DNA from: an uncultured Chloroflexia bacterium
GTDB taxonomy: Bacteria > Chloroflexota > Limnocylindria > Limnocylindrales > CSP1-4
Assembly (NCBI GenBank): GCA_963735865.1
Contig: CAVTML010000002.1
Location: forward strand, 903,668-967,667
DNA: 64,000 bases
Reading direction: 5' to 3'
In this document: piece after piece, positions 20,488 through 44,217 of the stretch
How positions within the stretch are numbered: the stretch's first letter is position 1
Layout: every line of letters begins with the position of its first letter
Notes under the pieces: generated by a model
Told to the model about the DNA's origin: nothing
Seen by the model: only the letters and a program-made list of their open reading frames with translations
Database searches by the model: none
Position numbers and translations under genes: made by a program

Positions 20488-20591
20488 GCCGACCGGTGGG
20501 ACGAAAAGATCACGCCGACGGCCTGCCCCAGGTTGGTAGACTCGTCCCGTCGGCGGGCCGCCCAGCGCCCGGACGGGACAGGAGGGATCGC

Positions 20592-24608: not shown

Positions 24609-26756
24609 GTGGACGAGCCCATGCCGCCCCGCCATGCCCCGCGCCCGGCGTCGGGGCACGCCCGCCATCGACCGGTCGGCGCGCCGGCGCCCGAGGCGCC
24701 CCCCGGCAACGAGCGGTTCTTCAGCTCGCTGGCCCACGCCGCGGCGCGCCTGTCGGGCAGCCTCGAGCGCGCCGCGATCCTGCACATCGTCGTCGGCGAG
24801 GTGGCCGAGACCCTCCAGGTCGACGCGGTCACGGTCCGGCTGATCGACGACGAGGGCCGCCTGCCGGTCCTCGCCTGGGCGGGCCTGCCCGCCCGCCAGG
24901 CCCGCCGCCTGCCCCCCTTCACGGTCGACGAGCCGTGGTTCGCCCGGCTGCGGCGCAGCCCGCGGCCGTGGGTCCGCCACCGCCTCGCCCCCGACGATGC
25001 CTACGATCCCGACCTTCGCTTCGAGGCCTCGGCCGTGGTGCCGCTGGTCCAGGAGCGCCAGGTCATCGGCCTGCTGTCGGCGGTGCGTCGCGTCGCCCGC
25101 AACTGGGCGCCCGAGGAAGTTGCCTTCCTGGAGGCCGTGGCCGGGCAGGCCGCCATCGCCCTCCACAACGCCGGCCTGTACGAAGAGGCCCACCGCTGGG
25201 CCGGGCAGCTCTCGGTGGTCCAGGCCTCGGTCAACCGCATGAACCGCCTCACCTCGGTCGCCGAGATCGGCGAGGCCGTCGTGGAGGAGACCCGCCGCGT
25301 CGTCGACTACCACAACTGCCGCGTCTACGTCATCGAGCCGCCGGATGTCGTGCCCATCGCCTTCAAGGGCGACGTCGGGACGTACGACACGATCCCGGTC
25401 GACGTCCTGCGGACGCGCATCGGCGAGGGCTTCACCGGCTGGGTGGCGGAGCACGGCGAGCCGCTCCTCATCCACGACGCCAACGCCGACCCGCGCGGCG
25501 CGACCATCCCCGGCACCGACAACGTCGACGAGTCGATGGTCGTGGTGCCCATGAAGTACGACGACCTGGCCATCGGGGTGGTGACCCTCTCCAAGCTCGG
25601 CCTGCGGCAGTTCGACCTGCGCGACCTGCAGCTGATGCAGATCCTGGCCAACGCCGCCGCCACGGCCATCCAGTCGGCGCGGGCCCTGGCCGAGACGCGG
25701 CAGGCCGCCGAGCGGATGCAGAACCTGCTGCAGATGTCGAGCGAGCTGACGCTCAGCCTGGAGCCCGCCACGGTGGCCGACATCCTGGCTCGCCACCTCT
25801 CCGAGGCGACCGGCCTTGACGAGTGCACCATCAGCTTCTGGGAGCGCGAGACCGACCGCATCGTCTCGTGGGGCTTCTGGCCGCCGCGTGCCGCCCCCGA
25901 CCGCACCGAGATCTACGACCTGGGCGCCTTCCCCGAGACACGGCGCGTGCTTGAGCAGCAGGTGGCCGCCACGATCGACCGCCACGACGAAGCCGCGGAT
26001 GAGGCCGAGCGGGACGAGCTGGGCCTCCTGGGCTTCGACGGCATGTGCATGCTGCCGCTGGTGGCCAAGGGCCAGTCGATCGGGCTCATCGAGCTGTACG
26101 GGCGCATGCCCATCCACCTCGACGCTGCCCAGCTGGACCTGGCTCGCGCGATGGCCAACGAAGCCGCCATGGCCCTGGAGAACGCCCGCCTCTACGAGGC
26201 CGCGCGGCGCCTCGCCGACCGCGACCCGCTGACGGGGTTCCTGAACCACCGCGCCTTCCACGAGCGCCTCGGCGAGGAGATCCTGCGGGGCCACCGCAGC
26301 CGCCGGCCGGTCGGCCTGCTGATGCTTGACGTGGACGACTTCAAGCTCGTCAACGACACGCTCGGCCACCAGATCGGGGACCAGGTCCTGCGGTGGGCCA
26401 GCGAGTGCATCGCCGCGACCCTCCGCGCGACGGACGTGGCGGCCCGTTACGGCGGTGACGAGTTCGCCGTGATCCTGCCCGAGGCCGAGGCGGCCGATGC
26501 CCAGCAGGCCGCCATGCGCATCATCGAGACCTTTGCCGCCAAGGCCTTCCAGACCGAAGCCCGCGGCGAGGTGCCCATCGCCGTGTCGATCGGGGTGGCC
26601 GCGTATCCGGTGGATGCGCGCTCGGCCGGCGACCTCGTCGGCGCGGCCGACGCCGCCCTCTACAGCGTCAAGCGCGCGGCCGGTGGCGCCTGGGCCCTGG
26701 CCGGCCAACCGGAGGTCCCGACGCCGGCCCCCACGCTGGTTCGCGCCGCCGGCTGA
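24609..26756 (+). CDS. multi-GAF diguanylate cyclase (GGDEF)
   Basis: GAF-like repeats, then DPLTGFLNHRAF...DVDDFKLVND...RYGGDEFAV. Start could be GTG 24609 or ATG 24621. Confidence 0.85.
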   Translation: MDEPMPPRHAPRPASGHARHRPVGAPAPEAPPGNERFFSSLAHAAARLSGSLERAAILHIVVGEVAETLQVDAVTVRLIDDEGRLPVLAWAGLPARQARRLPPFTVDEPWFARLRRSPRPWVRHRLAPDDAYDPDLRFEASAVVPLVQERQVIGLLSAVRRVARNWAPEEVAFLEAVAGQAAIALHNAGLYEEAHRWAGQLSVVQASVNRMNRLTSVAEIGEAVVEETRRVVDYHNCRVYVIEPPDVVPIAFKGDVGTYDTIPVDVLRTRIGEGFTGWVAEHGEPLLIHDANADPRGATIPGTDNVDESMVVVPMKYDDLAIGVVTLSKLGLRQFDLRDLQLMQILANAAATAIQSARALAETRQAAERMQNLLQMSSELTLSLEPATVADILARHLSEATGLDECTISFWERETDRIVSWGFWPPRAAPDRTEIYDLGAFPETRRVLEQQVAATIDRHDEAADEAERDELGLLGFDGMCMLPLVAKGQSIGLIELYGRMPIHLDAAQLDLARAMANEAAMALENARLYEAARRLADRDPLTGFLNHRAFHERLGEEILRGHRSRRPVGLLMLDVDDFKLVNDTLGHQIGDQVLRWASECIAATLRATDVAARYGGDEFAVILPEAEAADAQQAAMRIIETFAAKAFQTEARGEVPIAVSIGVAAYPVDARSAGDLVGAADAALYSVKRAAGGAWALAGQPEVPTPAPTLVRAAG

Positions 26757-26820
26757 ACCGCGCGGCGGCGGCGCTCAGGGTCGGGCCGCGCCCGACCGCG
26801 GCGTCGGGCACACTGGGGCG

Positions 26821-28710
26821 ATGCCGGCCGAGCCACCCTACCCGCTGCCCCCGGACCCCGAGGCGCCGCCGTACGAGTCACGGCCGCGAGCGTCACGTGG
26901 CGACGACATCCCGCTGCTCTCCAACGGGGCTCTGGCGCGGCTGTTCGTGGAGGCAGGCGACCTGATGGACCTCAAGGGCGAGCTGGTCTTCAAGGGCGTG
27001 GCCTACCGCCGTGCCGCCGAGGCCATCGAGCGCAGCCCGGTCGCCGTGGCACAGGCCTACCGGGCGGGCGATCCACCGCGCCTGCCGGGGGTCGGCGCGG
27101 CCATCACCGACAAGCTCGCCGAGCTGGCCGACACCGGCCGGCTGCGCTTCTACGAACGGCTGCGCCGAGACGTGCCGGCCGGCCTGCTCGACATCCTCGA
27201 CATGCCCGGCCTTGGGCCGCGAACCGTCCACCTGCTGCACACCGAACTCGGCATCGTCGACCTGGCCGGGCTGGAGGCGGCCGCCAAGGCGGGCCGCATC
27301 CGCTCCGTGCGCGGCCTCGGCCAGCGCACGGAGGAGCGCATCCTGGCCTCGCTGGCCGACCGCGCCGGGACGGCTGCCCGGCTGCGCCTGGGCCAGGCCG
27401 CCGAGGTCCTGGGCCACGTCTTCGGCGGGCTGGAGGACACGCCCGGCCTGCTCGGCCTCATCCCGGCCGGGTCGTTCCGGCGGCGGCGCGAGACGATCGG
27501 GGACCTGGACGTGCTGGCCGAGACCGATCGGCCCGACGAGCTCGTCAAGCGGTTCGTGGAGCTGCCCGAGGTGGAGAGCGTCATCGGCCGGGGCTCGCGC
27601 AAGGCCGCCGTGCGCCTGCGCCGAGGGCCGCAGGTGGATCTCATGCTCATGCCACCGGGTGAAGGTGGGGCGTACCTCGTCCACTTCACCGGCTCGGCGG
27701 CCCACAACGTCCGCCTGCGCGGGCGGGCCCGCGACCGCGGGTGGAGCCTCTCGGAGCAGGGGTTCGTCCGCCTCGGGGACGACGGCCAGCCTTTGTCGGG
27801 GGCCGCGGCCGAGCGACGGGCGTTCGAGACCGAGGCGGAGGTGTACGCCTTCCTGGACCTCGCCTGGATCCCACCCGAGCTGCGCGAGGACACCGGCGAG
27901 ATCGAGGCCGCCGAGGCGGGCAGACTGCCCCACCTCGTGGAGCTGGCCGACCTGCGGGGCGACTGCCACAGCCACTCCGACTGGTCGGACGGCCATGCGT
28001 CGCCGGAACGGATGGCGGAGGTCGCCCGCGGCCGGGGCCTGTCGTATCTCGTGCTGACGGACCACACCCAGAGCCTGGGCATCGCCCGCGGCCTGGATCC
28101 GGAGCGCGTCGAGCACCAGCGCACCGTGATCGCCGAGCTCAATGAGCGGTACCGCCACGAGGAGGAGGAGGGGAGTGCCCCGGCCGGCAGCCACCCCGGC
28201 GGCTTCCGCCTGCTGCACGGCTGCGAGCTGGAGATCCGTGCCGACGGGCGCCTGGACTACCCCGACCGCCTGCTGGCCAGCTTCGATGTCGTCGTGGCCA
28301 GCCTCCACGTCGGGCGCAAGCAGCCCACGGCACAGCTGATGGCGCGCTACACCGGCGCCCTCGCCAACCCCCACGTCGACATCATCAGCCACCCGTCGGG
28401 CCGCAAGCTGGGCGAGCGCGACGACCTGGACCTGGACTGGACCACCTTCTACGGCGAGGCCGCCCGCAGCGGTACCTGGCTGGAGATCAACGGCTCGGAC
28501 GAGCGCCTGGACCTGGCCCCCGAGCGGGCCCGCGCCGCACGGGCCGCCGGCTGCCGCTTCACGATCGACTCGGACGCCCACTACCTCCACGAGTTCGACA
28601 ACCTGGCCTGGGGCACGGCCATGGCCCGGCGCGCCTGGCTGGAGGCCGGCGACATCGTCAACACGCTGCCGCGCGATGCGTTCCTGGAGGCCGTGCGCGC
28701 TCGCGGTTAA
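26821..28710 (+). CDS. polX: DNA polymerase X family protein with C-terminal PHP phosphoesterase domain
   Basis: HhH LPGVGAAITDKL, nucleotidyltransferase GSFRRRRETIGDLDVL, PHP motif DCHSHSDWSDG. Confidence 0.88.
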   Translation: MPAEPPYPLPPDPEAPPYESRPRASRGDDIPLLSNGALARLFVEAGDLMDLKGELVFKGVAYRRAAEAIERSPVAVAQAYRAGDPPRLPGVGAAITDKLAELADTGRLRFYERLRRDVPAGLLDILDMPGLGPRTVHLLHTELGIVDLAGLEAAAKAGRIRSVRGLGQRTEERILASLADRAGTAARLRLGQAAEVLGHVFGGLEDTPGLLGLIPAGSFRRRRETIGDLDVLAETDRPDELVKRFVELPEVESVIGRGSRKAAVRLRRGPQVDLMLMPPGEGGAYLVHFTGSAAHNVRLRGRARDRGWSLSEQGFVRLGDDGQPLSGAAAERRAFETEAEVYAFLDLAWIPPELREDTGEIEAAEAGRLPHLVELADLRGDCHSHSDWSDGHASPERMAEVARGRGLSYLVLTDHTQSLGIARGLDPERVEHQRTVIAELNERYRHEEEEGSAPAGSHPGGFRLLHGCELEIRADGRLDYPDRLLASFDVVVASLHVGRKQPTAQLMARYTGALANPHVDIISHPSGRKLGERDDLDLDWTTFYGEAARSGTWLEINGSDERLDLAPERARAARAAGCRFTIDSDAHYLHEFDNLAWGTAMARRAWLEAGDIVNTLPRDAFLEAVRARG

Positions 28711-32373: not shown

Positions 32374-33183
32374 ATGCATGACCGTCGGGCCCGCATCCTG
32401 AACCTGACCGCCCTCGTGGTGGCGCTCAGCGTGCCGGTGGGCCTGCTGGACGGGCCCGCCTGGTGGCTCGGCGTGGCGGCCCTGATGGCAGCGACGGCGG
32501 TCGCCACACGCGCATCGACGGATCGATCGTGGCACGGCCTGCCGCTCGCCCCGGCGGCGCTGCCCATGCTGGCCGCGTTCAGCGCGGCCGGGCTGACCCA
32601 CCTCGCCGGCGATGGTGCCCTGTGGCTGCTCGCCGTCGCCTGCGGCGGAGCGCTGGTGGCGATGACGCTCCTCGCCGAGGCGCGCCTGGCCGGCCCCGCC
32701 GACGACCGGCGAGCGCGCCTGGAGCGCCAGGTCGTGCCCCTCGCCATCGTCGTCGCGTTCGGCGCGTTCCTGGCCGCGGCCGGCGCCATCACCGGTGGGC
32801 TTGCAAACACCGCCGGCCAGTCGACCGACGCCGCCCTTGGCGCCCTGACTGCCTCGGGCGTCCTCCTGCTGGCGCTGGCCGATGCGGCCGTGGCGGCCAC
32901 CCTCGGCTACCGGCTCGCCGCCCTGCGCACGACCAACCTCGCCGAAGCGTTGCGCATCGCCGGCACGTATGCCGTGGTGACCGGGCTCGCGGCGGCGCTG
33001 CTGCGCGTCCTGGAGCTGCCGCGGCTGTTCGGACCGGCCGTGCTGGCCGGCGTCTTCTACCTCTGGAGCGCCTACCGCGACGCCTCGGCGGCCCAGCGGC
33101 GGACGTCCGCGTGGCTGCTGGAATACGGGTTGCTGGTGGCCGCGCTGGTACTTGTGGTGGGGTGGAACCTGCTACTCCATTGA
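32374..33183 (+). CDS. polytopic membrane protein, unknown function
   Basis: 269 aa, Ala/Leu-rich with roughly 7-8 hydrophobic segments. No recognisable motif. Confidence 0.65.
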   Translation: MHDRRARILNLTALVVALSVPVGLLDGPAWWLGVAALMAATAVATRASTDRSWHGLPLAPAALPMLAAFSAAGLTHLAGDGALWLLAVACGGALVAMTLLAEARLAGPADDRRARLERQVVPLAIVVAFGAFLAAAGAITGGLANTAGQSTDAALGALTASGVLLLALADAAVAATLGYRLAALRTTNLAEALRIAGTYAVVTGLAAALLRVLELPRLFGPAVLAGVFYLWSAYRDASAAQRRTSAWLLEYGLLVAALVLVVGWNLLLH

Positions 33184-33258: not shown

Positions 33259-35481
33259 GTGCGACAACTGGGGGGCGCACGGAAGCACCGGCGCTCCTCA
33301 CGGCTGGCCGCCGTCCGACAGGTGTGCACCGCGATCGTCTCGACCACCCGCGTCGCGTCAACAGCACCCCCCGGTGGGCCGTCCCTGCGCGCCCTCGGCA
33401 CAGGTCTCGCCCTGGCCATGCTCACCGCCGCCCTGGTGACCCTGGTGGTGGCGATCGGCATCCTGCCGGCCCTTGGCTCGAATGGCTCGCGGGGCGGCGC
33501 CGGTAGTCAGAGCGCCTCCGGCGGGAGCACCGTCGCCGGTGGCCTTGACCAGGCCCGCACGTCAGCCCTCGGCATGGCGGGCGACCCCAGCGCCGCCCAG
33601 GTGATCGCGGCGAAGCCGGGCGCGGCTCCGTCCAAGGGTGCCGTCACCGCCCTGCAGCATGCGTTCACGGCGGCGGGTCCGGCCGCCGTCCGCATCGTCC
33701 TCAGCGACGCCACCGGCCGGCCACACCTCGTGTGGACTGGCGCCGGCGTGGGCGCCGTGCCAGCCGGCCAGCCGGCCCAGCCGCTGCCCGCCGTCGGGAC
33801 GACCACGGTGTCGGCCCCGTTCGTGGCCCCCGATGGCGACCACCAGCTCACGGTCGCGACCGGCGTCAGCGGCACGGTCGCCGGCCACGTGGTCAGCGGC
33901 GCCGTCCTCCTGACGATCTCCCTGGACGCGCTCAGCGCGGCCGCTCCGCCGCCGGCGCCTTCGATCGCGCCACCGAGCGGTCTCCCGGCCGCGCCGTTCT
34001 GGGCCGTGGTCCTGGTGGTGCTCCTCCTGGCCGGGGCTTGGGCCGTGCGCCGCGTCCTGCGGCCGGCGCGCGAGATGGTCGAGTCACGCGCCGACCTCGA
34101 GCAGCGCTACCAGGAGGCGGTGGCCAACGCCTACCTTGACGGCCTCACGGGCCTGGGCAACCAGCGCGCCTTCTCTGAAGCGTTCGAGCACGGCCTGCAG
34201 GCGGCGGTCCGCGACCACCTGCCGCTGGCCCTCCTGCTCATCGACCTCGACGACTTCAAGCGGGTCAACGACACGGACGGCCACAGCGCCGGCGACGCGC
34301 TCCTGCGGCGCTTCGCGCGCATCGTGGAGGGCACCGTCCGGCGCACCGACCGCGCCTACCGGCTGGGCGGCGACGAGTTCGGCGTGCTGATGCCGGCGAC
34401 CGACGCCGAGGGCGCGTCTGTGGTGGCCCGCCGCCTCCTGGCCGCGGCCCTTGAGCCGCCGCGCGAACGCGAGTTCGGCAAGGGCACGGCTCCCAAGGGC
34501 GTCTCGTTCTCGGCCGGCATCACGGCCGCCCCGCACTTCGGGACCGCCCAGGTGGAGTTGTACCGCCAGGCCGACGCGGCCCTCTACTGGTCCAAGCGGC
34601 ACGGCCGGACGGACGTCACGATCTTCGATGCGGGGCGGCACGACCTGGGGGCGCCGCTGGCCTCGGTCGACGACGCGACTGCGGTCCAGACGGTCCTGGA
34701 TGAGCGCCTCCTGCGGGCCGTCTTCCAGCCCATCGTGGCCCTGGCGACCGGCCGCATCATCGGCTACGAGGGCCTCATCCGGCCCACGCGGAGCGCCTTC
34801 CCCGATCCGGGAGCCATGTTCACGGCGGCCGAGGCGTGCGGCCGCACGCTCGAGCTCGACCGGGCCTGCCTGGAGACGGTGGCCGCCGCCGCGGCGGCGA
34901 TCCCAGCCGACAAGTGGGTCAGCCTGAACCTCTCACCGCGCACCCTCGAGGCTCCCGAGTTCAACGCCCTGGCCCTGTGCCGCCAGCTGGCCCGCCTGGG
35001 CCTGCCGTCGCAGCGCATCGTGCTCGAGCTGACCGAGCGCGAGGCCATCGAGGACCTCGAGCGTCTCCGCCACAACCTGGAGGGGCTGCGCGCCCTCGGC
35101 GTACGGGTGGCGGCCGACGACGTCGGCGCGGGCAACGCCGGCCTGCGCCTGCTCAGCCTCGTCGCTTTTGACGTCGTCAAGGTGGACCTTTCGCTGGTCC
35201 AGGATGCCGCCACGCGCCAGACCTCGGCCCATGTGCTGGAGACGCTGCAGGAGATCTCCGCGCGACGCGGCGCGATGGTCATCGCCGAAGGCCTGGAGAC
35301 GGCCCAGCAGCTGCAGGTCGTGCGCGCCGCCGGCATCGAGGCCGCCCAGGGGTACCTGCTGGGGCGCCCCGCGGAGGCGGTCGACCACGACACCATCGAC
35401 CTTGACGCCCTGGCCATCGGCGACCACGTGCGGCGGCTCTATGCCGGGTCGGCCCAGGGACCGGCACCCGACCGCCGCTGA
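33259..35481 (+). CDS. membrane-anchored GGDEF-EAL c-di-GMP protein
   Basis: Two TM segments flank a periplasmic region. RLGGDEFGV; EAL-domain motifs YEGLIRP, DDVGAGNAG, AEGLET, QGYLLGRP. Start uncertain (33259 to about 33418). Confidence 0.85.
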   Translation: MRQLGGARKHRRSSRLAAVRQVCTAIVSTTRVASTAPPGGPSLRALGTGLALAMLTAALVTLVVAIGILPALGSNGSRGGAGSQSASGGSTVAGGLDQARTSALGMAGDPSAAQVIAAKPGAAPSKGAVTALQHAFTAAGPAAVRIVLSDATGRPHLVWTGAGVGAVPAGQPAQPLPAVGTTTVSAPFVAPDGDHQLTVATGVSGTVAGHVVSGAVLLTISLDALSAAAPPPAPSIAPPSGLPAAPFWAVVLVVLLLAGAWAVRRVLRPAREMVESRADLEQRYQEAVANAYLDGLTGLGNQRAFSEAFEHGLQAAVRDHLPLALLLIDLDDFKRVNDTDGHSAGDALLRRFARIVEGTVRRTDRAYRLGGDEFGVLMPATDAEGASVVARRLLAAALEPPREREFGKGTAPKGVSFSAGITAAPHFGTAQVELYRQADAALYWSKRHGRTDVTIFDAGRHDLGAPLASVDDATAVQTVLDERLLRAVFQPIVALATGRIIGYEGLIRPTRSAFPDPGAMFTAAEACGRTLELDRACLETVAAAAAAIPADKWVSLNLSPRTLEAPEFNALALCRQLARLGLPSQRIVLELTEREAIEDLERLRHNLEGLRALGVRVAADDVGAGNAGLRLLSLVAFDVVKVDLSLVQDAATRQTSAHVLETLQEISARRGAMVIAEGLETAQQLQVVRAAGIEAAQGYLLGRPAEAVDHDTIDLDALAIGDHVRRLYAGSAQGPAPDRR

Positions 35482-35599: not shown

Positions 35600-36448
35600 A
35601 TGAGCCTTACGCCTGCCGCCGAATCCGCCCCGAACCCGGTGCGCCTCAAGCGCCAGCTGGTCGACCAGGCCATCGACGCCGCGCGCAAGGCCGACTGGGC
35701 GGGTGCCGCGGAGATCAACCGGCGCATCCTGGAGCTCGGCCCCGACAGCCCCTCGGAGAACCGCCTGGCGAAGTCGCTGTGGGAGCTTGGTGAGCTGGCC
35801 GAGGCCCGTGTCCATTACCAGGCGGCCCTGGCGCTCGATCCCACCAACCGCATCGCCGAACGCAACATCGACCGCCTGCGGGTCCTCCTCAACGAGGCCG
35901 GCGATCGCACCACGCCGGCCAAGCTGGGCAGCAAGGCGCCGGTCTCGATCTTCGTCGAGGAGACCGGCAAGACGGGTTTCGCCGGCCTCTATGACCTGGC
36001 CCGGCCCAAGCAGCTGGCCCAGGTCAACCCTGGTGACGCGGTCGAGCTCGTGCCCCGCGCGGCGGAGCTGCGGGCGACGTCCAACGGCGTCGAGATCGGC
36101 GCCGTGGAGCGCTCGGTCGCAGCGCGCCTGCTCAAGCTGATGGCCGACGGCAACCAGTACGCGGCCGGCGTGACGAGCCTTGGCGACCGCGACGTGCGCA
36201 TCATCATCCGCGAGATCTACCAGGACCCGCGCAACTACGGCAAGGTCTCGTTCCCCACCGCGGCCAAGGCCTCGGACCTGCGGCCGTACACCAAGGGCAC
36301 CCTCATCCGCGAGGAGATGGACTTCGAGGAGGACCTCGACCTCGACGATGAGGACGAGGAGATCGATGACATCGAGCGCGTCCTGCCGGTCGAGGTGACC
36401 GAGGAGGAGGCCTTCATCGAGGAGCCCGAGGATCTCGAGGAGGAGTAG
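35600..36448 (+). CDS. TPR-like / HIRAN-like protein with polyacidic C-terminal tail
   Basis: GAAGGAG box upstream. N-terminal TPR-like helices. The central segment NPGDAVELVP...GVEIGAVERSVAARLLKLMADGNQY resembles a HIRAN fold. Last ~50 aa are almost all D/E. Confidence 0.7.
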   Translation: MSLTPAAESAPNPVRLKRQLVDQAIDAARKADWAGAAEINRRILELGPDSPSENRLAKSLWELGELAEARVHYQAALALDPTNRIAERNIDRLRVLLNEAGDRTTPAKLGSKAPVSIFVEETGKTGFAGLYDLARPKQLAQVNPGDAVELVPRAAELRATSNGVEIGAVERSVAARLLKLMADGNQYAAGVTSLGDRDVRIIIREIYQDPRNYGKVSFPTAAKASDLRPYTKGTLIREEMDFEEDLDLDDEDEEIDDIERVLPVEVTEEEAFIEEPEDLEEE

Positions 36449-36473
36449 TCGCCGCCGCGCCACCCGGCGCGGC

Positions 36474-36479
36474 TAGACT
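36474..36479 (+). promoter_or_regulatory. -10-like hexamer TAGACT, 7 nt before ATG 36487
   Basis: TAGACT-gccgtcg-ATG, inside the 38-bp gap after the upstream gene. Confidence 0.35.
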
Positions 36480-36486
36480 GCCGTCG

Positions 36487-39204
36487 ATGGCGGAGCCGCT
36501 CTCCTCGCTCATCCGTCCGGACACCGGTCCCAGCCTTCCCTTCCTCGCCCGCCTCGCGCCGCCTCCGGCGCCGAACCTCCTGGGGGCCGAGCTCGAGGGT
36601 CGGTCCAGCCCGGGGGACGTCGTCATCGACCTCTTCGGGCGCGGCGGGTGGGTCGCGCGCGCGGCCGTCGGCCGCCTGCGCCGGACGCTGGATTTCGAAT
36701 CGATGGCCCTGACGCGCCTGGTCGCCGAGGTCGTGCTGCGTCCGCCGGACCTGCGCCACTTCGACGCGGCCGTCGGCTCGCTCGGCGCCCAGCCGCGCGG
36801 CGAGAGCGGCCTCCGCCAGGCGCTGAACGCCTCGTTCGCCTCACGCTGCCCGACCTGCGGCCGGCCCATCGTGGTCGACGAGTTCGTCTGGGACGGTGAC
36901 GCCCCGGCCCCGTTCCGCAAGACCTACCGCTGCACGGCCTGCCGCGACCAGCTGGGCGGCGGCGAGCAGCGCTCGGCACCCACCGACGACGCCGACATCG
37001 CCCTCGCTTCGGCACTCGTCGGCTCGGCCGAGGCGACCCGGGCGCGCGAAGCGCTGCGGGAGCGCTTCCCTGAGCCGGAAGGCGCCAACGACCTGGCCGA
37101 CCGCATCCTGGACCTCTACACGGCGCGCACCATGGTGGCCCTGCAGGCCATCCTCGAGCGCATCGAGCTGGACCTGCGCGCCGCGCCGATCGAGGCCGGC
37201 CTCCGCCTTGGCCTGGCCCATGCGCTGCTGCCGGCCAGCCGCCTCCACAGCTACCCCGGCCGCGTCGGCGCCCTGCGCATCGTGAACGGCACCGTCCGCC
37301 TGCCGGCCGACCGGCAGTGGCGCGAACGCAACCCGTGGCTGCTGTTCGAGGACGGCTGCCGCCTCGTGCGCGGGTTCATCCAGCGCCTGGAGGCCTCACC
37401 CGGTGGACCGCTCCAGGCGCGCCTGGGCGACGACCTGCAGGCCCTCGTCGAGGGCGCGGCCAATGTGGCCCTGCGCCGCGGCTCGGCCGCCCTGCCCGGC
37501 CAGGTCACGGTGGCCGACCGGACGGCGCCCGGCCGCAACCGCGTGCGCCTCGTACTGAGCCAGCCGCCGGTGCGCTGGTCGACCGAGACGCTCTCCTTCG
37601 CCTACCTCGCCACCTCGGTCGTCCTGGGCCGCGAAGCCGCCTCGCAGCTGCCCAGCGAGCCGCTCTTCACGTCGCTCCCGCGAGCGGAGTGGGGCTGGGA
37701 GGCGACGGCCCTGCGCCGAGGCATGGCCGCCGTGGTGCCCCTGCTGGCGTCCGACGCGCGCGCCATCCTGCTGCTCGAGGCGGGGCCCGCGGAGGGCCTC
37801 GTGGCCGGCGTCCTGGGCGGCGTCGGGGCGGGCTATGCCCTGACCGCGGCGCTGCTGGCCGAGAGCGAGGACGGCTACACCGGCGTCCTCGAGTTCGCAC
37901 CGCCGGGGGCGGCCCTCGGCCGGGGGCCGCGGACCCGTGCCAACGTGCCCCTGCCATCGCTCGAGGAGGCGGCCGAGGAGGGCGGTGCCTTCCGCCTGGC
38001 CGACGTGGAGGCGGCCACGGCCGAGGTCGCCGTGGAGGTGCTCAAGGCGCGCGGTGAGCCGGCCCGCTTCGAGCGGCTGCTCGGCGAGGTCATGGTCGGC
38101 CTGGACCGGCGGGGCCACCTGCGACGCCTCGTCGGCACCCGCACGTTCGGGGAGACGGAGGCGCGCAGCGCACGGGCCGCGGAGGCCCTGGGGCTGTTCG
38201 GCGAGGCCGGGCCACCACCGCTCGAGGCGCCGGCGGAAGAGCCCGGGGAGGTGGCCGAGCCGCCCGCCGCCCGCCCGCGGCGGGGACCGACCGGCGACTC
38301 TCCGATCGCGCCGCGGGGCAGCGACCAGGTGGGCCTGCTGCTCGACCTGATCATGGGCGAGCTGCGCCGGCCGCAGCATCCCCGGCTGGAGGAGCTCGAG
38401 CCGGGCCGCTGGTGGCTGCGCGACAAGCACGACATCGCCGAGGCGGCGGTGCCCCTGGCCGACCGGCTCGAATGGGCCGTCTTCTCGCTGCTCTCGACCT
38501 CCGGCCAGATCGGGGAGGCGGCCTTCTTCGATCGCATCGCCAGCATGTTCCGCGGCCACGACGCGCCCGACGAGGCGCTCGTGCGGGCCTGCCTGGAGAG
38601 TTACCGCAGCCCCGTCTCCACGGCCGAGGCGCTGCGCCCGGCGGACGATCTGCACGTCCGCTCGCGCGAGCACGCCGAGGCCATCGGCCTCATCACCGAC
38701 TTCGGCCATCGCCTCGGCATGCGCTGCTGGATCGGCGCCGCCGAGCAGCGCCACCTCTACGAGGGTGTGCCCCTCGGCGAGCGGCTGACCGAAGCCGAGC
38801 GGCGCGCCTACCTGCCGCTCATCTCGCGCGGCGCCCAGGAGGCCCTGGAGACGACCGACGCCATCTGGTACATCCGCCACAAGGCGACCTTCCTCTTCGA
38901 GGTCGAATGGACGGCCATGCTGACCGAGCCGGTCCTGCGCCGCGGGCCGCGCATCCCCACCGACGACGCCGTGGTGCGCTTCCTGGTCATCGCCCCCGAG
39001 CGCACGGAGCTGCTGCGCTACAAGCTGGCCTACTCGCCGCTGCTGCGGCGGACGATGGCGGCCGACAACTGGCACATCCTCAAGACGGACCACCTGCGCA
39101 CGCTCGTCGAGGGCGAGCCCGACCTGGGCCGCCTCGCGCCGCTGCTGGGCCTGGATCCGGAGATCGAGTCGGGCGGTGAGCAGCTGTCCCTCTTCGCCGG
39201 CTGA
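36487..39204 (+). CDS. 905-aa methyltransferase-like / Zn-ribbon / nuclease-like protein, unknown function
   Basis: SAM motif-I-like PGDVVIDLFGRGGW...LDFE. CPTCGRP...CTACRD ribbon. QPPV (37561-37572) where (D/N/S)PP(Y/F) is expected. C-terminal D-x13-FEVEW (38857-38910). Confidence 0.75.
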   Translation: MAEPLSSLIRPDTGPSLPFLARLAPPPAPNLLGAELEGRSSPGDVVIDLFGRGGWVARAAVGRLRRTLDFESMALTRLVAEVVLRPPDLRHFDAAVGSLGAQPRGESGLRQALNASFASRCPTCGRPIVVDEFVWDGDAPAPFRKTYRCTACRDQLGGGEQRSAPTDDADIALASALVGSAEATRAREALRERFPEPEGANDLADRILDLYTARTMVALQAILERIELDLRAAPIEAGLRLGLAHALLPASRLHSYPGRVGALRIVNGTVRLPADRQWRERNPWLLFEDGCRLVRGFIQRLEASPGGPLQARLGDDLQALVEGAANVALRRGSAALPGQVTVADRTAPGRNRVRLVLSQPPVRWSTETLSFAYLATSVVLGREAASQLPSEPLFTSLPRAEWGWEATALRRGMAAVVPLLASDARAILLLEAGPAEGLVAGVLGGVGAGYALTAALLAESEDGYTGVLEFAPPGAALGRGPRTRANVPLPSLEEAAEEGGAFRLADVEAATAEVAVEVLKARGEPARFERLLGEVMVGLDRRGHLRRLVGTRTFGETEARSARAAEALGLFGEAGPPPLEAPAEEPGEVAEPPAARPRRGPTGDSPIAPRGSDQVGLLLDLIMGELRRPQHPRLEELEPGRWWLRDKHDIAEAAVPLADRLEWAVFSLLSTSGQIGEAAFFDRIASMFRGHDAPDEALVRACLESYRSPVSTAEALRPADDLHVRSREHAEAIGLITDFGHRLGMRCWIGAAEQRHLYEGVPLGERLTEAERRAYLPLISRGAQEALETTDAIWYIRHKATFLFEVEWTAMLTEPVLRRGPRIPTDDAVVRFLVIAPERTELLRYKLAYSPLLRRTMAADNWHILKTDHLRTLVEGEPDLGRLAPLLGLDPEIESGGEQLSLFAG

Positions 39205-43572: not shown

Positions 43573-44217
43573 ATGCCGTCGTTCAGGCTCTTCGGACGCA
43601 ACGAAGCCCCGGCTCCCCCGGAGGAGGAGGCGCCGCGGGCGCCGCGCGCCCCCGCACCCGACACCGACCAGGGCGTGCCGTTCGACGCCCTGACCGAGGA
43701 CTGGCGCCTGCTGGGCATGATGCGCATCAAGGGCCGCCTCTCGGATGCCCTCAACAAGCGCGAGGCGATCCCCATCACGGATGTCAGCTGGGCGCCCTCC
43801 GATGGCAGCGCTGCGTTCACGCCGGCGCCCGGGCTGCAGGCGGTGGACCCCTACGATCTCGTCGTCGTGCTGGGCGGCAAGGACTCGCTACCGCCGCAGA
43901 CCGATGAGGAGCGCTCGGCCCATCGCATCCACAAGGTGGACTACGCGGTCGCCCTGGAGTGCCCGCCGTTCCGCATCGTCGGCATGGTGCACCTGTTCCC
44001 CGGCACCGAGCCGGCTCGCCTCCTGGACCGCACCACGGAGCTGTTCATCCCCGTGACCAATGCCCAGGCGTTCCACGGCAGCCAGCGGGTGGGTGACGCG
44101 AACGTGGACGTGGCGCTCGTGAACCGCAGCTACCTGCGGGGCGTCGAGCAGCTCGACGAAGGGTCGGTGGCGCCGGGCGCCGCTGGCTCGTCCGAGGCCC
44201 GCGCCCAGGAGGGCTGA
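43573..44217 (+). CDS. hypothetical protein
   Basis: 214-aa ORF 11 nt after acs, with genome-typical codon bias. No recognisable motif. Confidence 0.6.
   Translation: MPSFRLFGRNEAPAPPEEEAPRAPRAPAPDTDQGVPFDALTEDWRLLGMMRIKGRLSDALNKREAIPITDVSWAPSDGSAAFTPAPGLQAVDPYDLVVVLGGKDSLPPQTDEERSAHRIHKVDYAVALECPPFRIVGMVHLFPGTEPARLLDRTTELFIPVTNAQAFHGSQRVGDANVDVALVNRSYLRGVEQLDEGSVAPGAAGSSEARAQEG

What the first reader, a model, noticed from the sequence alone, without database searches (positions are those of the whole stretch)
35600..39204. Uncharacterised two-gene DNA-directed module: a TPR/HIRAN-like acidic-tail protein plus a degenerate methylase with Zn ribbon and nuclease-like domain
Gene 1 (282 aa) combines three parts.
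- N-terminal TPR-like helices.
- A central segment (QVNPGDAVELVPRAAELRATSNGVEIGAVERSVAARLLKLMADGNQYAAGVTSLGDRDVRIIIRE). Its pattern resembles the HIRAN DNA-3'-end-binding fold: a Gd.v.L motif, then an iG(y/a)v..s.A..L..l motif, then a d.g...a.v motif.
- A ~50-residue tail that is almost pure Asp/Glu, which could be a DNA mimic or a protein-docking tail.

Gene 2 (905 aa, 38 bp downstream, with its own TAGACT box) has four recognisable parts.
- It begins with a Rossmann motif-I-like stretch, PGDVVIDLFGRGGWVARAAVGRLRRTLDFE. Compare the pGd.VLDPF.GSGTT..aA..lgR..iGiE pattern of DNA amino-methyltransferases.
- A four-Cys ribbon (CPTCGRP-x27-CTACRD) follows.
- About 220 residues later comes LVLSQPPVRWSTETLSFAYL. 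This sits where Zn-ribbon adenine methylases of the COG1743 type carry DPPY-x5-10-LSDFFYVWL. The catalytic tetrad is QPPV rather than (D/N/S)PP(Y/F/W), so methyl transfer is probably lost or altered.
- The C-terminal ~200 aa carry EAIGLITDFG...RCWIG...DAIWYIRHKATFLFEVEWT, reminiscent of a PD-(D/E)xK-type nuclease core with the Lys replaced.

I cannot match a pairing of a DNA-end binder with an inactivated-methylase/nuclease-like giant protein to any described restriction, BREX, DISARM or repair system. It may be a novel defence or DNA-maintenance module, or a conserved housekeeping pair of unknown role.
Basis: partly seen in the sequence, partly recalled or inferred. Interest (0 to 1): 0.7.

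Follow-up and report, generated by a model that had tools for sequence, protein, structure and literature searches.

The report
Clamp-tethered nuclease from a dead methylase
A gene pair fixed in one class of Chloroflexota bacteria encodes a former restriction-modification enzyme whose methylase catalytic motif has decayed but whose nuclease residues and a newly spotted sliding-clamp docking motif are conserved, plus a small acidic partner protein, so it looks like an undescribed DNA-repair module rather than an anti-phage system.

Summary

- **Gene 2 (905 aa).** It has an N6/N4 DNA-methylase fold. A Cys4 Zn-ribbon and helical insert sits after strand 2, as in PglXI/DUF1156-type methylases. The catalytic motif IV is non-canonical (QPPVRW). 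The C-terminal domain belongs to the NmeDI-type restriction-nuclease family, with D791, E805 and E807 invariant.
- **Gene 1 (282 aa).** It is TPR, then a small beta domain that is only weakly HIRAN-like, then an acidic tail.

New here:
- Gene 2 ends in QLSLF, the canonical beta-sliding-clamp-binding motif. About 62 of 65 orthologues from different species keep it.
- The gene 2 family occurs in at least 162 Chloroflexota species genomes. It has no hit on plasmids, phages or viral contigs.
- Gene 1 sits directly upstream only in Limnocylindria, and is translationally coupled in one clade.
- A family-X DNA polymerase (PolX) lies upstream in 24 Limnocylindria loci.
- Anaerolineae orthologues lack gene 1 and have mostly lost the nuclease and SAM-loop residues, but keep the clamp motif.

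Best reading: a domesticated R-M fusion working as a clamp-recruited DNA nuclease or reader in replication-linked repair. The mechanism is inferred, not shown.

The parts
35600..36448 (+). Gene 1 CDS, 282 aa: TPR, small beta domain, conserved linear motifs, acidic tail
   Evidence: ORF. More than 3800 homologues at 74-100% identity, all Limnocylindria/Chloroflexota MAGs. An AAGGAG Shine-Dalgarno lies 5 nt before the ATG.
35636..35899 (+). Gene 1 TPR helices (aa 13-100)
   Evidence: Pfam TPR_2 E 2e-6 and TPR_1 1.1e-5. PDB TPR proteins down to E 4e-23. Foldseek TPR hits with prob 1.0.
35951..36220 (+). Gene 1 central beta-rich domain (aa 118-207), HIRAN-like at best
   Evidence: The AF2 model has six strands and a helix at pLDDT 60-77. 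Foldseek hit 3k2y_B: E 0.018, rmsd 2.6 A over 65 columns. Pfam HIRAN E 0.044-0.15 in 4 of 14 members. hhalign against the HLTF HIRAN domain gives only a local match, E 0.035.
36221..36313 (+). Gene 1 invariant linear motifs (NYGKVSFP...DLRPYTKGT), predicted disordered
   Evidence: These columns are invariant in A2 and A5 across two clades that are only about 50% identical. pLDDT is below 50.
36311..36445 (+). Gene 1 acidic tail (aa 238-282), 27 D/E of 45
   Evidence: An acidic tail is kept in both Limnocylindria clades.
36474..36479 (+). TAGACT, a -10-like hexamer 7 nt before the gene 2 ATG (possible leaderless start)
   Evidence: The same hexamer and spacing occur in L002. The consensus promoter scan found nothing, and no terminator lies between the genes.
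36487..39204 (+). Gene 2 CDS, 905 aa: pseudo-methylase, Zn ribbon, NmeDI-type nuclease, clamp-binding motif
   Evidence: ORF. 1650 homologues. AF2 pLDDT 81, pTM 0.76.
36544..36786 (+). Methylase fold, N-terminal part (aa 20-100): strand 1, motif I D48-L-F-G-R-G-G-W55, strand 2 ending in E71
   Evidence: The A1 profile aligns to the M.RsrI motif I region, weakly (E 1.2). Orthologues hit MTase models over the equivalent residues, about 17-140. G51, R52 and G53 are kept in 117-120 of 120 and E71 in 120 of 120 close orthologues.
36835..36981 (+). Cys4 Zn ribbon (C121, C124, C149, C152)
   Evidence: Invariant in 120 of 120 close orthologues and about 41 of 43 aligned representatives.
36982..37521 (+). 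Helical/alpha+beta insert after core strand 2 (aa 166-345), TRD-like
   Evidence: Secondary structure. The equivalent residues 154-297 of orthologues match PADLOC PglXI positions 332-472. PMC12839542 describes the same placement of the TRD for type-3 BREX methylases.
37522..37911 (+). Methylase fold, C-terminal part (aa 346-475): strand 4 with degenerate motif IV Q359-P-P-V-R-W364, strands 5-7
   Evidence: Q at 359 in 106 of 120 and S in 14 of 120. No aromatic residue follows PP. Never canonical in 76 species loci. A Mad2 model matches this region in an orthologue.
38203..38319 (+). Disordered, length-variable linker (aa 573-611)
   Evidence: pLDDT 30-43. Large indels among orthologues.
38326..38646 (+). 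Helical domain with invariant GRWWL hairpin (aa 614-720); function untested
   Evidence: Secondary structure. R641, W642, W643 and L644 are invariant and G640 nearly so in A1.
38650..39111 (+). NmeDI_C-type PD-(D/E)xK-like nuclease domain (aa 722-875): E728, D791, E805-V-E807, K846, K866
   Evidence: PF27126 NmeDI_C is precomputed on orthologues, including one at 94% identity. PADLOC REase_II matches aa 766-878 of a 42%-identical orthologue. Alpha-beta-beta-beta-alpha-beta order in the model. Residue counts.
39181..39195 (+). QLSLF (aa 899-903), canonical beta-clamp-binding motif in a disordered C-terminal tail
   Evidence: Sequence. Consensus QL[S/D]LF or QxxLF from PMC12309361. Kept in about 62 of 65 species loci and 110 of 120 close orthologues. 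Only 1 of 360 window ORFs carries such a motif in its last 12 residues. pLDDT below 50 for aa 889-905.
26497..28710 (+). Family-X DNA polymerase (PolX with PHP domain), conserved upstream neighbour
   Evidence: Pfam DNA_pol_B_thumb, HHH_8, HHH_5 and PHP. Found upstream on the same strand in 24 Limnocylindria loci and in none of the other loci.

Best explanation
Gene 2 encodes a domesticated restriction-modification fusion protein.

- **DNA-recognition part (inferred role).** The N-terminal two thirds are an N6/N4 DNA-methylase fold of the PglXI/DUF1156 kind. A Zn-ribbon and helical target-recognition insert sits after strand 2. The catalytic (D/N/S)PP(Y/F/W) loop has decayed to QPPVRW. This part therefore most likely no longer methylates. 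I infer that it serves as the DNA-recognition module, possibly SAM-binding.
- **Nuclease part (residues shown, activity inferred).** The C-terminal domain is an NmeDI-type restriction-nuclease fold. Its acidic residues D791, E805 and E807 form a BamHI-like D...ExE arrangement and are strictly conserved in this lineage.
- **Clamp motif (motif shown, binding inferred).** The protein ends in QLSLF, the canonical docking peptide for the DNA polymerase III beta sliding clamp. I infer that the protein is recruited to clamps left on newly replicated or repaired DNA and cuts or marks DNA there. This would be a replication-coupled repair or quality-control role, analogous to the clamp-dependent nuclease NucS/EndoMS or the domesticated restriction enzyme MutH.
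- **Gene 1 (inferred role).** It is TPR, a small beta domain and an acidic tail, co-transcribed and in one clade translationally coupled with gene 2. I infer that it is a Limnocylindria-specific partner or regulator of the catalytically competent form.
- **PolX (inferred role).** The conserved upstream PolX could fill the resulting gaps.
For: **Fold and homology**
- AF2 pLDDT 81.
- Foldseek top hits are methylases: PDB SAM-dependent (mainly RNA) methylases; BFVD N4-cytosine DNA MTase at E 1.5e-6.
- Orthologues hit PF01555 (17/26), MTase_II (22/26, best 1.5e-16), PglXI (18/26), Mad2 (7/26) and REase_II (6/26).
- PF27126 NmeDI_C is precomputed on close orthologues.

**Motif states**
- Motif IV is never canonical.
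- D791, E805 and E807 are kept in 120, 119 and 117 of 120 close orthologues.
- The Cys4 ribbon is kept in 120 of 120.

**Clamp motif**
- QLSLF sits at the extreme C-terminus in a disordered tail.
- It is conserved in about 62 of 65 species loci across Anaerolineae, Ktedonobacter and Limnocylindria.
- It is unique among 360 window ORFs. The consensus is from PMC12309361.
- NucS/EndoMS is a precedent for a clamp-dependent nuclease with a C-terminal clamp motif (PMC6159521).

**Housekeeping character**
- 162 Chloroflexota species genomes hold a relative.
- Synteny is conserved.
- No homologue on 72,556 plasmids, 50,697 phages or IMG/VR contigs.
- GC content is the same as the flanks.

**Linkage**
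- Gene 1 lies directly upstream in every Limnocylindria locus that has upstream DNA.
- In clade 2 the gene 1 stop overlaps an AGGAG and gene 2 starts 8-10 nt later.
- PolX lies upstream in 24 Limnocylindria loci, although the downstream genes differ between clades.
- Gene 1, an intact nuclease triad and a GxG loop occur together.
Against: - Nothing is shown biochemically. Clamp binding, cleavage and SAM binding are all inferred from sequence.
- Most Anaerolineae-type orthologues have lost the ExE residues and the GxG loop but keep the protein and the clamp motif. The family's core role may therefore not need catalysis.
- The window protein itself gives no significant hit to any local Pfam, NCBIfam or PADLOC model. 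Homology is by transitivity through orthologues at 25-42% identity.
- No significant structural match to a nuclease was obtained. The only one was MmcB-like at E 0.78. The model could not be searched domain by domain.
- The link between gene 1 and an intact active site rests on essentially one clade, so it is phylogenetically confounded.
- PolX proximity could be inherited gene order.
- The HIRAN assignment for gene 1 is weak, and the gene 1 model is poor (pLDDT 57).
- Plasmids and phages of Chloroflexota are poorly sampled, so their lack of hits is a soft argument.
Confidence: 0.45

Rival explanations
1. A catalytically silent clamp-associated scaffold or regulator. On this view the conserved function of the family is DNA and clamp binding through the Zn ribbon, the TRD-like insert and the C-terminal motif. 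It might regulate replication, clamp unloading or chromosome organisation. The enzyme-like folds would be relics.
For: In most non-Limnocylindria orthologues both the SAM loop (DPFC[QR]xxx, no GxG) and the nuclease ExE (VLT, LIR, IWR and others) are degenerate. The Zn ribbon and the Q[LIM]x[LM]F tail persist. Motif IV is non-canonical everywhere.
Against: In the window's own class D791, E805, E807, K846, K866, the GxG loop and E71 are kept in 117-120 of 120. That argues for selection on active-site chemistry in this lineage.
Confidence: 0.2
2. A lineage-fixed restriction-like defence enzyme, of Type IIG/IIC or modification-dependent Type IV style. The inactive methylase module would read DNA modification or sequence and the NmeDI-type domain would cut foreign DNA. 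Gene 1 would be an acidic DNA-mimic inhibitor or sensor.
For: All detectable relatives of the domains are R-M or defence components: Type II MTases, PglXI of BREX type 3, Mad2 of MADS, the weak DUF1156_antiphage model and Type II REase. The architecture fuses a methylase with a nuclease. An unprotected nuclease would need an inhibitor, and an acidic tail could mimic DNA.
Against: - The window proteins have no significant PADLOC hit: none for gene 2, and only a weak Cas7b match for gene 1 (E 0.008).
- No BREX, MADS or other partner genes are nearby.
- The family is present in at least 162 Chloroflexota species, with synteny and identities that track taxonomy.
- It is absent from plasmids, phages and viral contigs.
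- A conserved clamp-binding motif and a PolX neighbour fit DNA maintenance better.
- Many orthologues lack nuclease residues.
Confidence: 0.15
3. An active, clamp-tethered maintenance DNA methyltransferase with an unusual catalytic loop. It would methylate newly replicated DNA while riding on the clamp, by analogy with eukaryotic DNMT1 and PCNA. The C-terminal domain would act as a DNA-binding or proofreading module.
For: In Limnocylindria the SAM-binding motif I is near-canonical: DPWAGTGW in clade 2 and DLHGRGGW in clade 1. The acidic residue at the end of strand 2 is invariant. Clade 2 carries SPP, which resembles the SPP(Y/F) of N4-cytosine methylases. The best structural hit is an N4-cytosine DNA MTase.
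Against: No aromatic residue follows PP in any orthologue. The first position is Q, S, A, T or E, so it is not conserved. The GxG loop is lost in most Anaerolineae. Strict conservation of nuclease acidic residues is not explained.
Confidence: 0.12

Closest known systems
PglXI (BrxXI) methylase of type-3 BREX and related DUF1156/Mad2-type Zn-ribbon N6-adenine DNA methylases (PF01555 lineage)
   Same: Same methylase fold, with motif I near the N-terminus. A large alpha+beta/helical target-recognition insert sits after core strand 2. Orthologues match PglXI positions 332-472, Mad2 and many Type II MTase models.
   Different: The catalytic motif IV is degenerate (QPPVRW, SPPP, [ST]APP). There are no BREX or MADS partner genes. 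A C-terminal nuclease domain and a clamp-binding motif are added. The family is vertically fixed in a phylum rather than patchy.
R.NmeDI, Type II restriction endonuclease of Neisseria meningitidis (351 aa; cuts both sides of RCCGGY; PMC2095814)
   Same: The C-terminal domain carries Pfam PF27126 NmeDI_C in orthologues. It also matches a 351-position PADLOC REase_II model over positions 178-296.
   Different: NmeDI is a stand-alone enzyme paired with an active C5 methylase and a Vsr (the Vsr from my own recollection). Here the domain is the tail of a 905-aa protein with no active methylase partner in sight. The NmeDI catalytic residues are not described in that paper.
Type IIG/IIC single-chain restriction-modification enzymes (e.g. 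MmeI; from general knowledge)
   Same: A methylase module and a PD-(D/E)xK-type nuclease module sit in one polypeptide. SAM may act as a cofactor.
   Different: In Type IIG enzymes the nuclease is N-terminal and the methylase is active. They are sporadically distributed defence genes and have no clamp motif.
EndoMS/NucS (PMC6159521, PMC8228993) and MutH
   Same: Working analogy only. NucS is a restriction-fold nuclease recruited by the sliding clamp through a C-terminal motif, acting in post-replicative repair. MutH is a restriction enzyme relative domesticated for repair.
   Different: No sequence or domain homology to NucS was detected or tested. The DNA-recognition module is different (methylase fold and Zn ribbon). 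The substrate is unknown.
HIRAN domain (PF08797; HLTF, Rad5, L. plantarum lp_0118 PDB 3k2y)
   Same: The gene 1 central domain is a small beta-rich domain with an '(N)G..IG.V....A..L..LM' stretch that aligns to HIRAN profile positions 45-72. There is a Foldseek hit to 3k2y.
   Different: Scores are far below the Pfam cut-off. The NPYD-type loop that holds the 3'-OH in HLTF is missing (about 7 residues shorter). The model is of low confidence.

Membership tests
N6/N4 amino-DNA methyltransferases (PF01555; PglXI/DUF1156-type) | Class I Rossmann-like SAM-methyltransferase fold | tested here: met
   The AF2 model has strand order 1-2-[insert]-4-5-6-7. The top Foldseek PDB hits are nearly all SAM methyltransferases. 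The BFVD top hit is an N4-cytosine DNA MTase, E 1.5e-6, prob 1.0.
N6/N4 amino-DNA methyltransferases (PF01555; PglXI/DUF1156-type) | Significant match to family sequence models | tested here: inconclusive
   The window protein has no hit. Full-length orthologues at 25-42% identity hit PF01555 in 17/26, MTase_II in 22/26 (best 1.5e-16) and PglXI in 18/26. Membership therefore holds only by transitivity.
N6/N4 amino-DNA methyltransferases (PF01555; PglXI/DUF1156-type) | Motif I (D/E)xFxGxG SAM-binding loop and an acidic residue at the end of strand 2 | tested here: met
   D48-L-F-G51-R-G53-G-W and E71 are present. G51, R52 and G53 are kept in 117-120 of 120 and E71 in 120 of 120. Most Anaerolineae orthologues have lost this motif.
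N6/N4 amino-DNA methyltransferases (PF01555; PglXI/DUF1156-type) | Catalytic motif IV (D/N/S)PP(Y/F/W) | tested here: not met
   The window has QPPVRW. Position 359 is Q in 106 and S in 14 of 120. No aromatic residue follows PP. No canonical motif occurs in 76 species loci.
N6/N4 amino-DNA methyltransferases (PF01555; PglXI/DUF1156-type) | Methyl transfer to DNA | not testable with these tools
   Needs a 3H-SAM assay or a long-read methylome.
NmeDI_C (PF27126) / PD-(D/E)xK restriction-nuclease fold | Match to the family model | tested here: met
   PF27126.1 is precomputed on most close orthologues, including P0001 at 94% identity, and is named NmeDI_C. The local Pfam copy lacks the model. PADLOC REase_II PDLC03534 hits 6/26 orthologues, at aa 766-878 of P0249.
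NmeDI_C (PF27126) / PD-(D/E)xK restriction-nuclease fold | Alpha-beta-beta-beta-alpha-beta core with D...(D/E)xK catalytic residues | tested here: inconclusive
   The secondary-structure order fits (H722-742, E746-749, E792-796, E800-807, H813-822, E829-835). D791, E805 and E807 are invariant, but the Lys position is Glu, as in BamHI by general knowledge. K846 and K866 are conserved elsewhere. No significant structural hit to a nuclease was found (MmcB-like, E 0.78).
Beta-sliding-clamp-binding proteins | Pentapeptide QL[S/D]LF or QxxLF in an exposed, flexible segment | tested here: met
   QLSLF lies at aa 899-903 of 905, with pLDDT below 50. It is conserved in about 62 of 65 species loci and 110 of 120 close orthologues. 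Only 1 of 360 control ORFs has it. The consensus is from PMC12309361.
Beta-sliding-clamp-binding proteins | Physical binding to DnaN | not testable with these tools
   Needs peptide-binding, pull-down or co-structure experiments.
HIRAN domain (PF08797) | Pfam match above the gathering score (24.7 bits) | tested here: not met
   12.3-14.1 bits, E 0.044-0.15, in 4 of 14 members, covering only profile positions 45-72.
HIRAN domain (PF08797) | Fold similarity to solved HIRAN structures | tested here: inconclusive
   Foldseek rank 50 is 3k2y_B: E 0.018, TM (target) 0.46, rmsd 2.6 A over 65 columns. The model has mean pLDDT 57. 3k2y is the next PDB hit after HLTF when the HLTF HIRAN sequence is used as query (E 0.12).
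HIRAN domain (PF08797) | 3'-OH-binding pocket residues (NPYD-type loop of HLTF; general knowledge) | tested here: not met
   The region between 'VELVP' and 'SNGVEIG' is about 7 residues shorter and has no N-P-Y-D. This rests on sequence inspection and the alignment.
TPR repeat proteins | TPR helical hairpins | tested here: met
   Pfam TPR_2 reaches its gathering score (27.9 vs 27, E 2e-6). PDB and Foldseek TPR hits.
Described defence systems (R-M, BREX, MADS, DISARM and others in PADLOC) | Model hits plus the system's partner genes in the neighbourhood, and patchy or mobile distribution | tested here: not met
   The window proteins give no significant PADLOC hit: none for gene 2, and only a weak Cas7b match for gene 1 (E 0.008). 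The neighbours are PolX, a membrane protein, GGDEF-EAL, an aminotransferase, MscS and Acs. The family is phylum-wide and vertical in distribution, with none on plasmids or phages.

The most novel reading that the evidence does not exclude
Chloroflexota possess a previously unrecognised replication-coupled DNA surveillance nuclease, built from a domesticated restriction-modification fusion. A methylase fold that can no longer methylate reads the DNA, perhaps its sequence, a lesion, a mismatch or its modification state. An NmeDI-type nuclease cuts. The beta clamp supplies recruitment and possibly strand or timing information. In Limnocylindria a TPR/beta-barrel/acidic-tail partner and PolX complete a dedicated repair pathway, a functional counterpart of MutH or NucS/EndoMS.
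Probability: 0.25. Interest if true: 0.85.

Novelty: new variant of a known kind. Interest (0 to 1): 0.66.

Why it matters
If the reading holds, this is a clear case of a restriction-modification enzyme captured by the host for chromosome maintenance and wired to the replisome through a clamp-binding motif.

- Only a few such domestications are known; MutH is the clearest, and Vsr and NucS are comparable cases. Each one revealed a repair pathway.
- The family is fixed across a large, poorly studied phylum that is abundant in soils and sediments.
- It shows a natural series from a catalytically intact form (Limnocylindria, with partner gene and PolX) to doubly 'dead' forms (most Anaerolineae) that still keep the clamp motif. 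That series makes the question of what a pseudo-methylase does at the clamp directly testable.
- It also gives a function-oriented handle on the Pfam domain NmeDI_C, and on an abundant protein annotated only as 'TPR repeat protein'.

Tried and rejected
- **Direct family scans.** Pfam, NCBIfam and PADLOC scans of the two window proteins gave nothing for gene 2. Gene 1 gave only TPR, a faint HIRAN hit, and chance-level hits such as Cas7b at E 0.008.
- **PDB sequence searches.**
  - The gene 2 single sequence and its profile gave LIM-domain noise on the Zn ribbon and a sub-threshold M.RsrI motif I match at E 1.2.
  - The gene 1 central-domain profile gave only mitochondrial IF3 at E 0.19-0.5. I rejected this as insignificant.
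- **Whole-chain Foldseek.** The gene 2 search is dominated by the methylase fold.
- **Gene 1 model.** The A2 alignment was too shallow (74% identity or more) and gave pLDDT 57.
- **Literature searches.** Searches for PF27126 and for 3K2Y with HIRAN found nothing useful.
- **Genome scan.** The search for related loci with the very diverse alignment A3 failed for lack of a conserved stretch. It worked with A4.
- **Conserved neighbour of non-Limnocylindria orthologues.** None was shared by more than 10 of 52 loci.
- **Distant relatives of the gene 1 central domain.** Only Limnocylindria-type proteins were returned.
- **Promoter and terminator scan.** The consensus scan found nothing between the genes.
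- **'Variable defence island gene'.** Considered and rejected on distribution, synteny, and absence from plasmids, phages and viral contigs.

Full report
**1. The observation**

The two ORFs are present exactly as described. Gene 1 is 35600..36448 + (282 aa) and gene 2 is 36487..39204 + (905 aa), separated by 38 nt. Window GC is about 0.70-0.75 throughout, and the two genes do not stand out.

Minor corrections:
- 21 residues, not 27, lie between CPTCGRP and CTACRD.
- The acidic tail (aa 238-282) has 27 D/E in 45 residues.
- TAGACT is at 36474-36479, 7 nt before the ATG.

Both are real genes.
- Gene 2 has 1650 homologues at E <= 1e-3 among the scored candidates, with identities of 53-94% among the 120 listed.
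- Gene 1 has 3829 homologues, with identities of 74-100% among the 120 listed.
- Almost all that carry a name come from Candidatus Limnocylindrales/Limnocylindria or Chloroflexota MAGs; a few carry other candidate-phylum MAG labels, probably mis-binned.
- The N-terminus of gene 2 (MAEPLSSLIRP) is conserved, which fixes its start.

**2. Gene 2 anatomy**

Direct scans of the window protein against Pfam, NCBIfam, PADLOC and PDB sequences gave nothing significant. Three lines of indirect evidence then converge.

(a) Structure.
- The AlphaFold2 model built on 30 orthologues is good: pLDDT 81, pTM 0.76.
- Its best Foldseek matches in PDB are nearly all SAM-dependent methyltransferases.
- In BFVD the top hit is an N4-cytosine DNA methyltransferase (E 1.5e-6, prob 1.0), followed by adenine DNA methylases.

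(b) Sequence homology through more distant orthologues. These are full-length and 25-42% identical to the window protein, and were found by the exhaustive profile search.
- 17 of 26 hit Pfam N6_N4_Mtase.
- 22 of 26 hit PADLOC Type II MTase models, best E 1.5e-16.
- 18 of 26 hit PglXI, the type-3 BREX methylase.
- 7 of 26 hit Mad2.
- 4 of 26 weakly hit NCBIfam DUF1156_antiphage.

(c) Where the hits fall.
- The MTase hits cover aa ~17-140, the motif I region.
- The PglXI hit covers aa ~154-297, the helical insert after the Zn ribbon.
- The Mad2 hit covers the motif IV region.

In the model the insert lies after core strand 2: strand 1 is aa 45-48, strand 2 is aa 66-70, and strand 4 is aa 353-358. 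A recent comparative study describes the same placement for type-3 BREX and related DUF1156 methylases (PMC12839542).

**3. State of the methylase motifs**

In 120 close orthologues:
- Motif I is D-L-(H/F)-G-R-G-G-W, with G51, R52 and G53 kept in 117-120 of 120.
- The acidic residue after strand 2 (E71) is invariant.
- Motif IV is Q(106)/S(14)-P-P-x-(R/H)-W, with no aromatic residue after PP.

Across 76 species-level loci, no orthologue has a canonical (D/N/S)PP(Y/F/W).
- A second Limnocylindria clade has an almost textbook motif I (VLDPWAGTGW) but SPPP at motif IV.
- Most Anaerolineae-type proteins have DPFC(Q/R)xxx, with no GxG, and (S/T)APP.

Amino-methyl transfer is thus probably lost family-wide. 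SAM binding may survive in Limnocylindria. This last point is inference.

**4. The C-terminal domain**

- The precomputed Pfam annotation on most close orthologues, including one at 94% identity, is PF27126, named NmeDI_C. That model is absent from the local Pfam copy.
- A 351-position PADLOC Type II REase model is the same length as R.NmeDI (PMC2095814). It matches aa 766-878 of a 42%-identical orthologue and hits 6 of 26 members.
- The model shows an alpha-beta-beta-beta-alpha-beta order for aa 722-835.
- D791 is kept in 120 of 120, E805 in 119 and E807 in 117. K846, K866 and R839 are kept in 119-120, and E728 in 110.
- D...E-x-E in place of D...(D/E)xK is the arrangement known from BamHI (general knowledge).
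- I obtained no significant structural hit to a nuclease. The only one was an MmcB-like protein at E 0.78. Fold membership therefore rests on sequence models.

**5. The new finding: a clamp-binding motif**

- The last seven residues are Q-L-S-L-F-A-G.
- QL[S/D]LF, or more generally QxxLF, is the consensus beta-clamp-binding motif. QLSLF is the C-terminal motif of B. subtilis PolC (PMC12309361).
- The tail is predicted disordered: pLDDT is below 50 for aa 889-905.
- In the 65 species loci whose C-terminus could be read, 59 match Q-[LMIVF]-x-[LMIFV]-[FLWPY] within the last 14 residues. Three more (L004, L005, L014) end in QLQLF before their stop. These loci cover Anaerolineae, Ktedonobacter and both Limnocylindria clades.
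- 110 of 120 close orthologues have the motif, against 0 of 120 gene 1 proteins and 1 of 360 stop-to-stop ORFs in the window, which is gene 2 itself.
- Q899 is invariant, and L900, L902 and F903 are at least 90% conserved in A1.

This is the most conserved linear feature of the family. It argues that every member docks on DnaN. Binding itself is inferred.

**6. Distribution**

- A scan of one genome per GTDB species, using only two peptide patterns, found 162 encoded relatives. All but two of the 79 loci kept are labelled Chloroflexota of some kind: Anaerolineae/Anaerolineales, Caldilineae, Ktedonobacter racemifer, Limnocylindria. One is labelled Steroidobacteraceae but is typical Limnocylindria clade 2, probably mis-binned; one is an unclassified 'uncultured bacterium'.
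- No homologue was found in 72,556 plasmids, 50,697 phage genomes or IMG/VR contigs.
- Identities follow taxonomy.

This is not how R-M or defence genes behave. One caveat applies: mobile elements of this phylum are poorly sampled.

**7. Gene 1 and the neighbourhood**

Gene 1 has four parts.
- TPR helices at aa ~13-100.
- A beta-rich domain at aa ~118-207.
- Invariant linear motifs (FVEETGKTGFA; NYGKVSFP...DLRPYTKGT) in segments predicted disordered.
- An acidic tail.

The HIRAN idea receives only weak, though convergent, support.
- Pfam HIRAN gives E 0.044-0.15 in 4 of 14 members, over profile positions 45-72 only.
- hhalign against a bona fide HLTF HIRAN sequence gives a local match at E 0.035.
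- Foldseek hits 3k2y_B at E 0.018, rmsd 2.6 A over 65 columns. 3k2y is the next PDB hit after HLTF for the HIRAN query.
- The gene 1 model is poor (pLDDT 57), and the NPYD-type 3'-OH loop is absent.
- I therefore call it 'HIRAN-like at best'.

A profile search with the central domain returned only Limnocylindria-type proteins.

Linkage of the two genes:
- Gene 1 lies immediately upstream of gene 2 in every Limnocylindria locus that has upstream DNA. That is 25 loci at 45-74% identity.
- It is absent next to all 52 non-Limnocylindria orthologues, which share no common neighbour.
- In the divergent Limnocylindria clade the gene 1 stop codon overlaps an AGGAG, and gene 2 starts 8-10 nt later, which indicates translational coupling.
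- In the window's clade the spacer carries TAGACT 7 nt before the ATG. The same is true in L002.
- No terminator lies between the genes.

PolX:
- A family-X DNA polymerase with a PHP domain (window 26497-28710) lies upstream on the same strand in 24 Limnocylindria loci, at 50-61% identity. It lies next to none of the other loci.
- The downstream genes differ between the two clades. One has aminotransferase, MscS and Acs. The other has PIG-L and an ABC transporter.
- The genes between PolX and gene 1 also vary.

**8. A correlation**

All Limnocylindria orthologues, which have gene 1 and PolX nearby, keep the GxG loop and the D...[ED]V[EQ] nuclease residues. Of the roughly 50 other orthologues only a handful keep E-V-E (L015, L038, L077; L004 and L005 have Q-V-E). 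The rest show VLT, LIR, IWR, AFK and similar, and most lack GxG. Yet they keep the Zn ribbon and the clamp motif. This fits the idea that gene 1 belongs with the catalytically competent form. It rests on one clade, so it is confounded by phylogeny.

**9. Mechanism proposed**

What is shown:
- the folds and homologies;
- the motif states;
- the clamp motif and its conservation;
- the operon structure;
- the PolX linkage;
- the vertical distribution.

What is inferred:
- The protein is recruited by its QLSLF tail to beta clamps on replicated or repaired DNA.
- The Zn-ribbon/TRD-like insert and the pseudo-methylase pocket recognise a DNA feature.
- The NmeDI-type domain cuts or nicks.
- The gene 1 protein regulates or targets it, using TPR for protein contacts, the beta domain possibly for DNA ends, and the acidic tail possibly as a DNA mimic or autoinhibitor.
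- PolX may fill gaps.

NucS/EndoMS is the closest working analogy: a clamp-dependent restriction-fold nuclease with a C-terminal clamp motif (PMC6159521; PMC8228993). I give this reading 0.45.

Rivals:
- A catalytically silent clamp-bound scaffold or regulator, 0.2. The doubly degenerate Anaerolineae forms favour it.
- A lineage-fixed restriction-like defence enzyme, 0.15.
- An active clamp-tethered maintenance methylase with an odd catalytic loop, 0.12.

**10. Comparison with known systems, and novelty**

- The protein cannot be filed as an amino-methyltransferase, because motif IV was tested and not met.
- It cannot be filed under any described defence system, because no partner genes are present and the distribution is wrong.
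- The gene 1 central domain cannot be filed as HIRAN, because it is below threshold and lacks the pocket motif.
- It does qualify as a relative of PglXI/DUF1156-type methylases fused to an NmeDI_C-type domain.
- I found no paper describing the family.
- I rate it a new variant of a known kind: a domesticated R-M fusion with a clamp-binding motif. There is a realistic chance, about 0.25, that it represents a new replication-coupled repair route in Chloroflexota.
- Interest is 0.66. This is a surprising and testable combination, but all evidence is computational.

Noticed in passing
window 26497-28710 (+): A family-X DNA polymerase with a PHP domain (PolX). It is the one upstream neighbour kept near the gene pair in both Limnocylindria clades. 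It lies about 1 kb upstream in clade 2, about 1.6 kb in L002 and about 6.9 kb here, because of inserted genes.
   Followed up: yes
window 32374-33183 (+); L055 4055-4831 (+): A 269-aa polytopic membrane protein with no Pfam match lies between PolX and gene 1. In clade 2 a conserved 258-aa membrane ORF occupies the same slot and overlaps the PolX stop. The two show only a weak collinear match (E 0.004 for the single comparison), so their equivalence is uncertain.
   Followed up: partly
window 33259-35481 (+): A GGDEF-EAL (c-di-GMP turnover) protein with an N-terminal sensor-like region lies directly upstream of gene 1. It is not present at this position in the related loci, so it looks like a lineage-specific insertion into the PolX-gene 1 interval.
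   Followed up: partly
window 28747-30891 (-): A 714-aa BNR/Asp-box repeat protein (Ycf48-like beta-propeller hits) lies on the opposite strand between PolX and the gene pair.
   Followed up: no
window 20496-23156 (+): An 886-aa protein with three CWB2 cell-wall-binding repeats at its C-terminus, which suggests an S-layer or wall-anchored protein.
   Followed up: no
L080 (contig CAYVLM010000001.1): This contig is labelled 'uncultured Steroidobacteraceae bacterium'. It carries the typical Limnocylindria clade 2 cluster (PolX, membrane ORF, gene 1, gene 2), so it is probably a mis-binned or mislabelled contig.
   Followed up: no
L016-L033 and other Anaerolineae loci (e.g. L021 5390-7645): Orthologues of gene 2 in which both the SAM loop and the nuclease ExE residues are degenerate still end in QLPLF or QIPLF. 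They look like doubly 'dead' enzymes that keep the clamp motif and the Zn ribbon.
   Followed up: partly
window 38203-38319 (gene 2 aa 573-611) and the equivalent region in orthologues: The disordered linker before the C-terminal third varies from near absence to more than 150 residues of Pro/Ala/Gly/Glu-rich low-complexity sequence among orthologues (columns about 690-960 of A1).
   Followed up: no
window 43573-44217 (+): A 214-aa protein with a DUF6812 domain lies just after acetyl-CoA synthetase. Its function is unknown.
   Followed up: no
L001 4743-6428, L002 10620-12299: In other Limnocylindria a DUF885 gene follows gene 2 directly. It is missing at this position in the window, where the class-III aminotransferase follows instead.
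   Followed up: no
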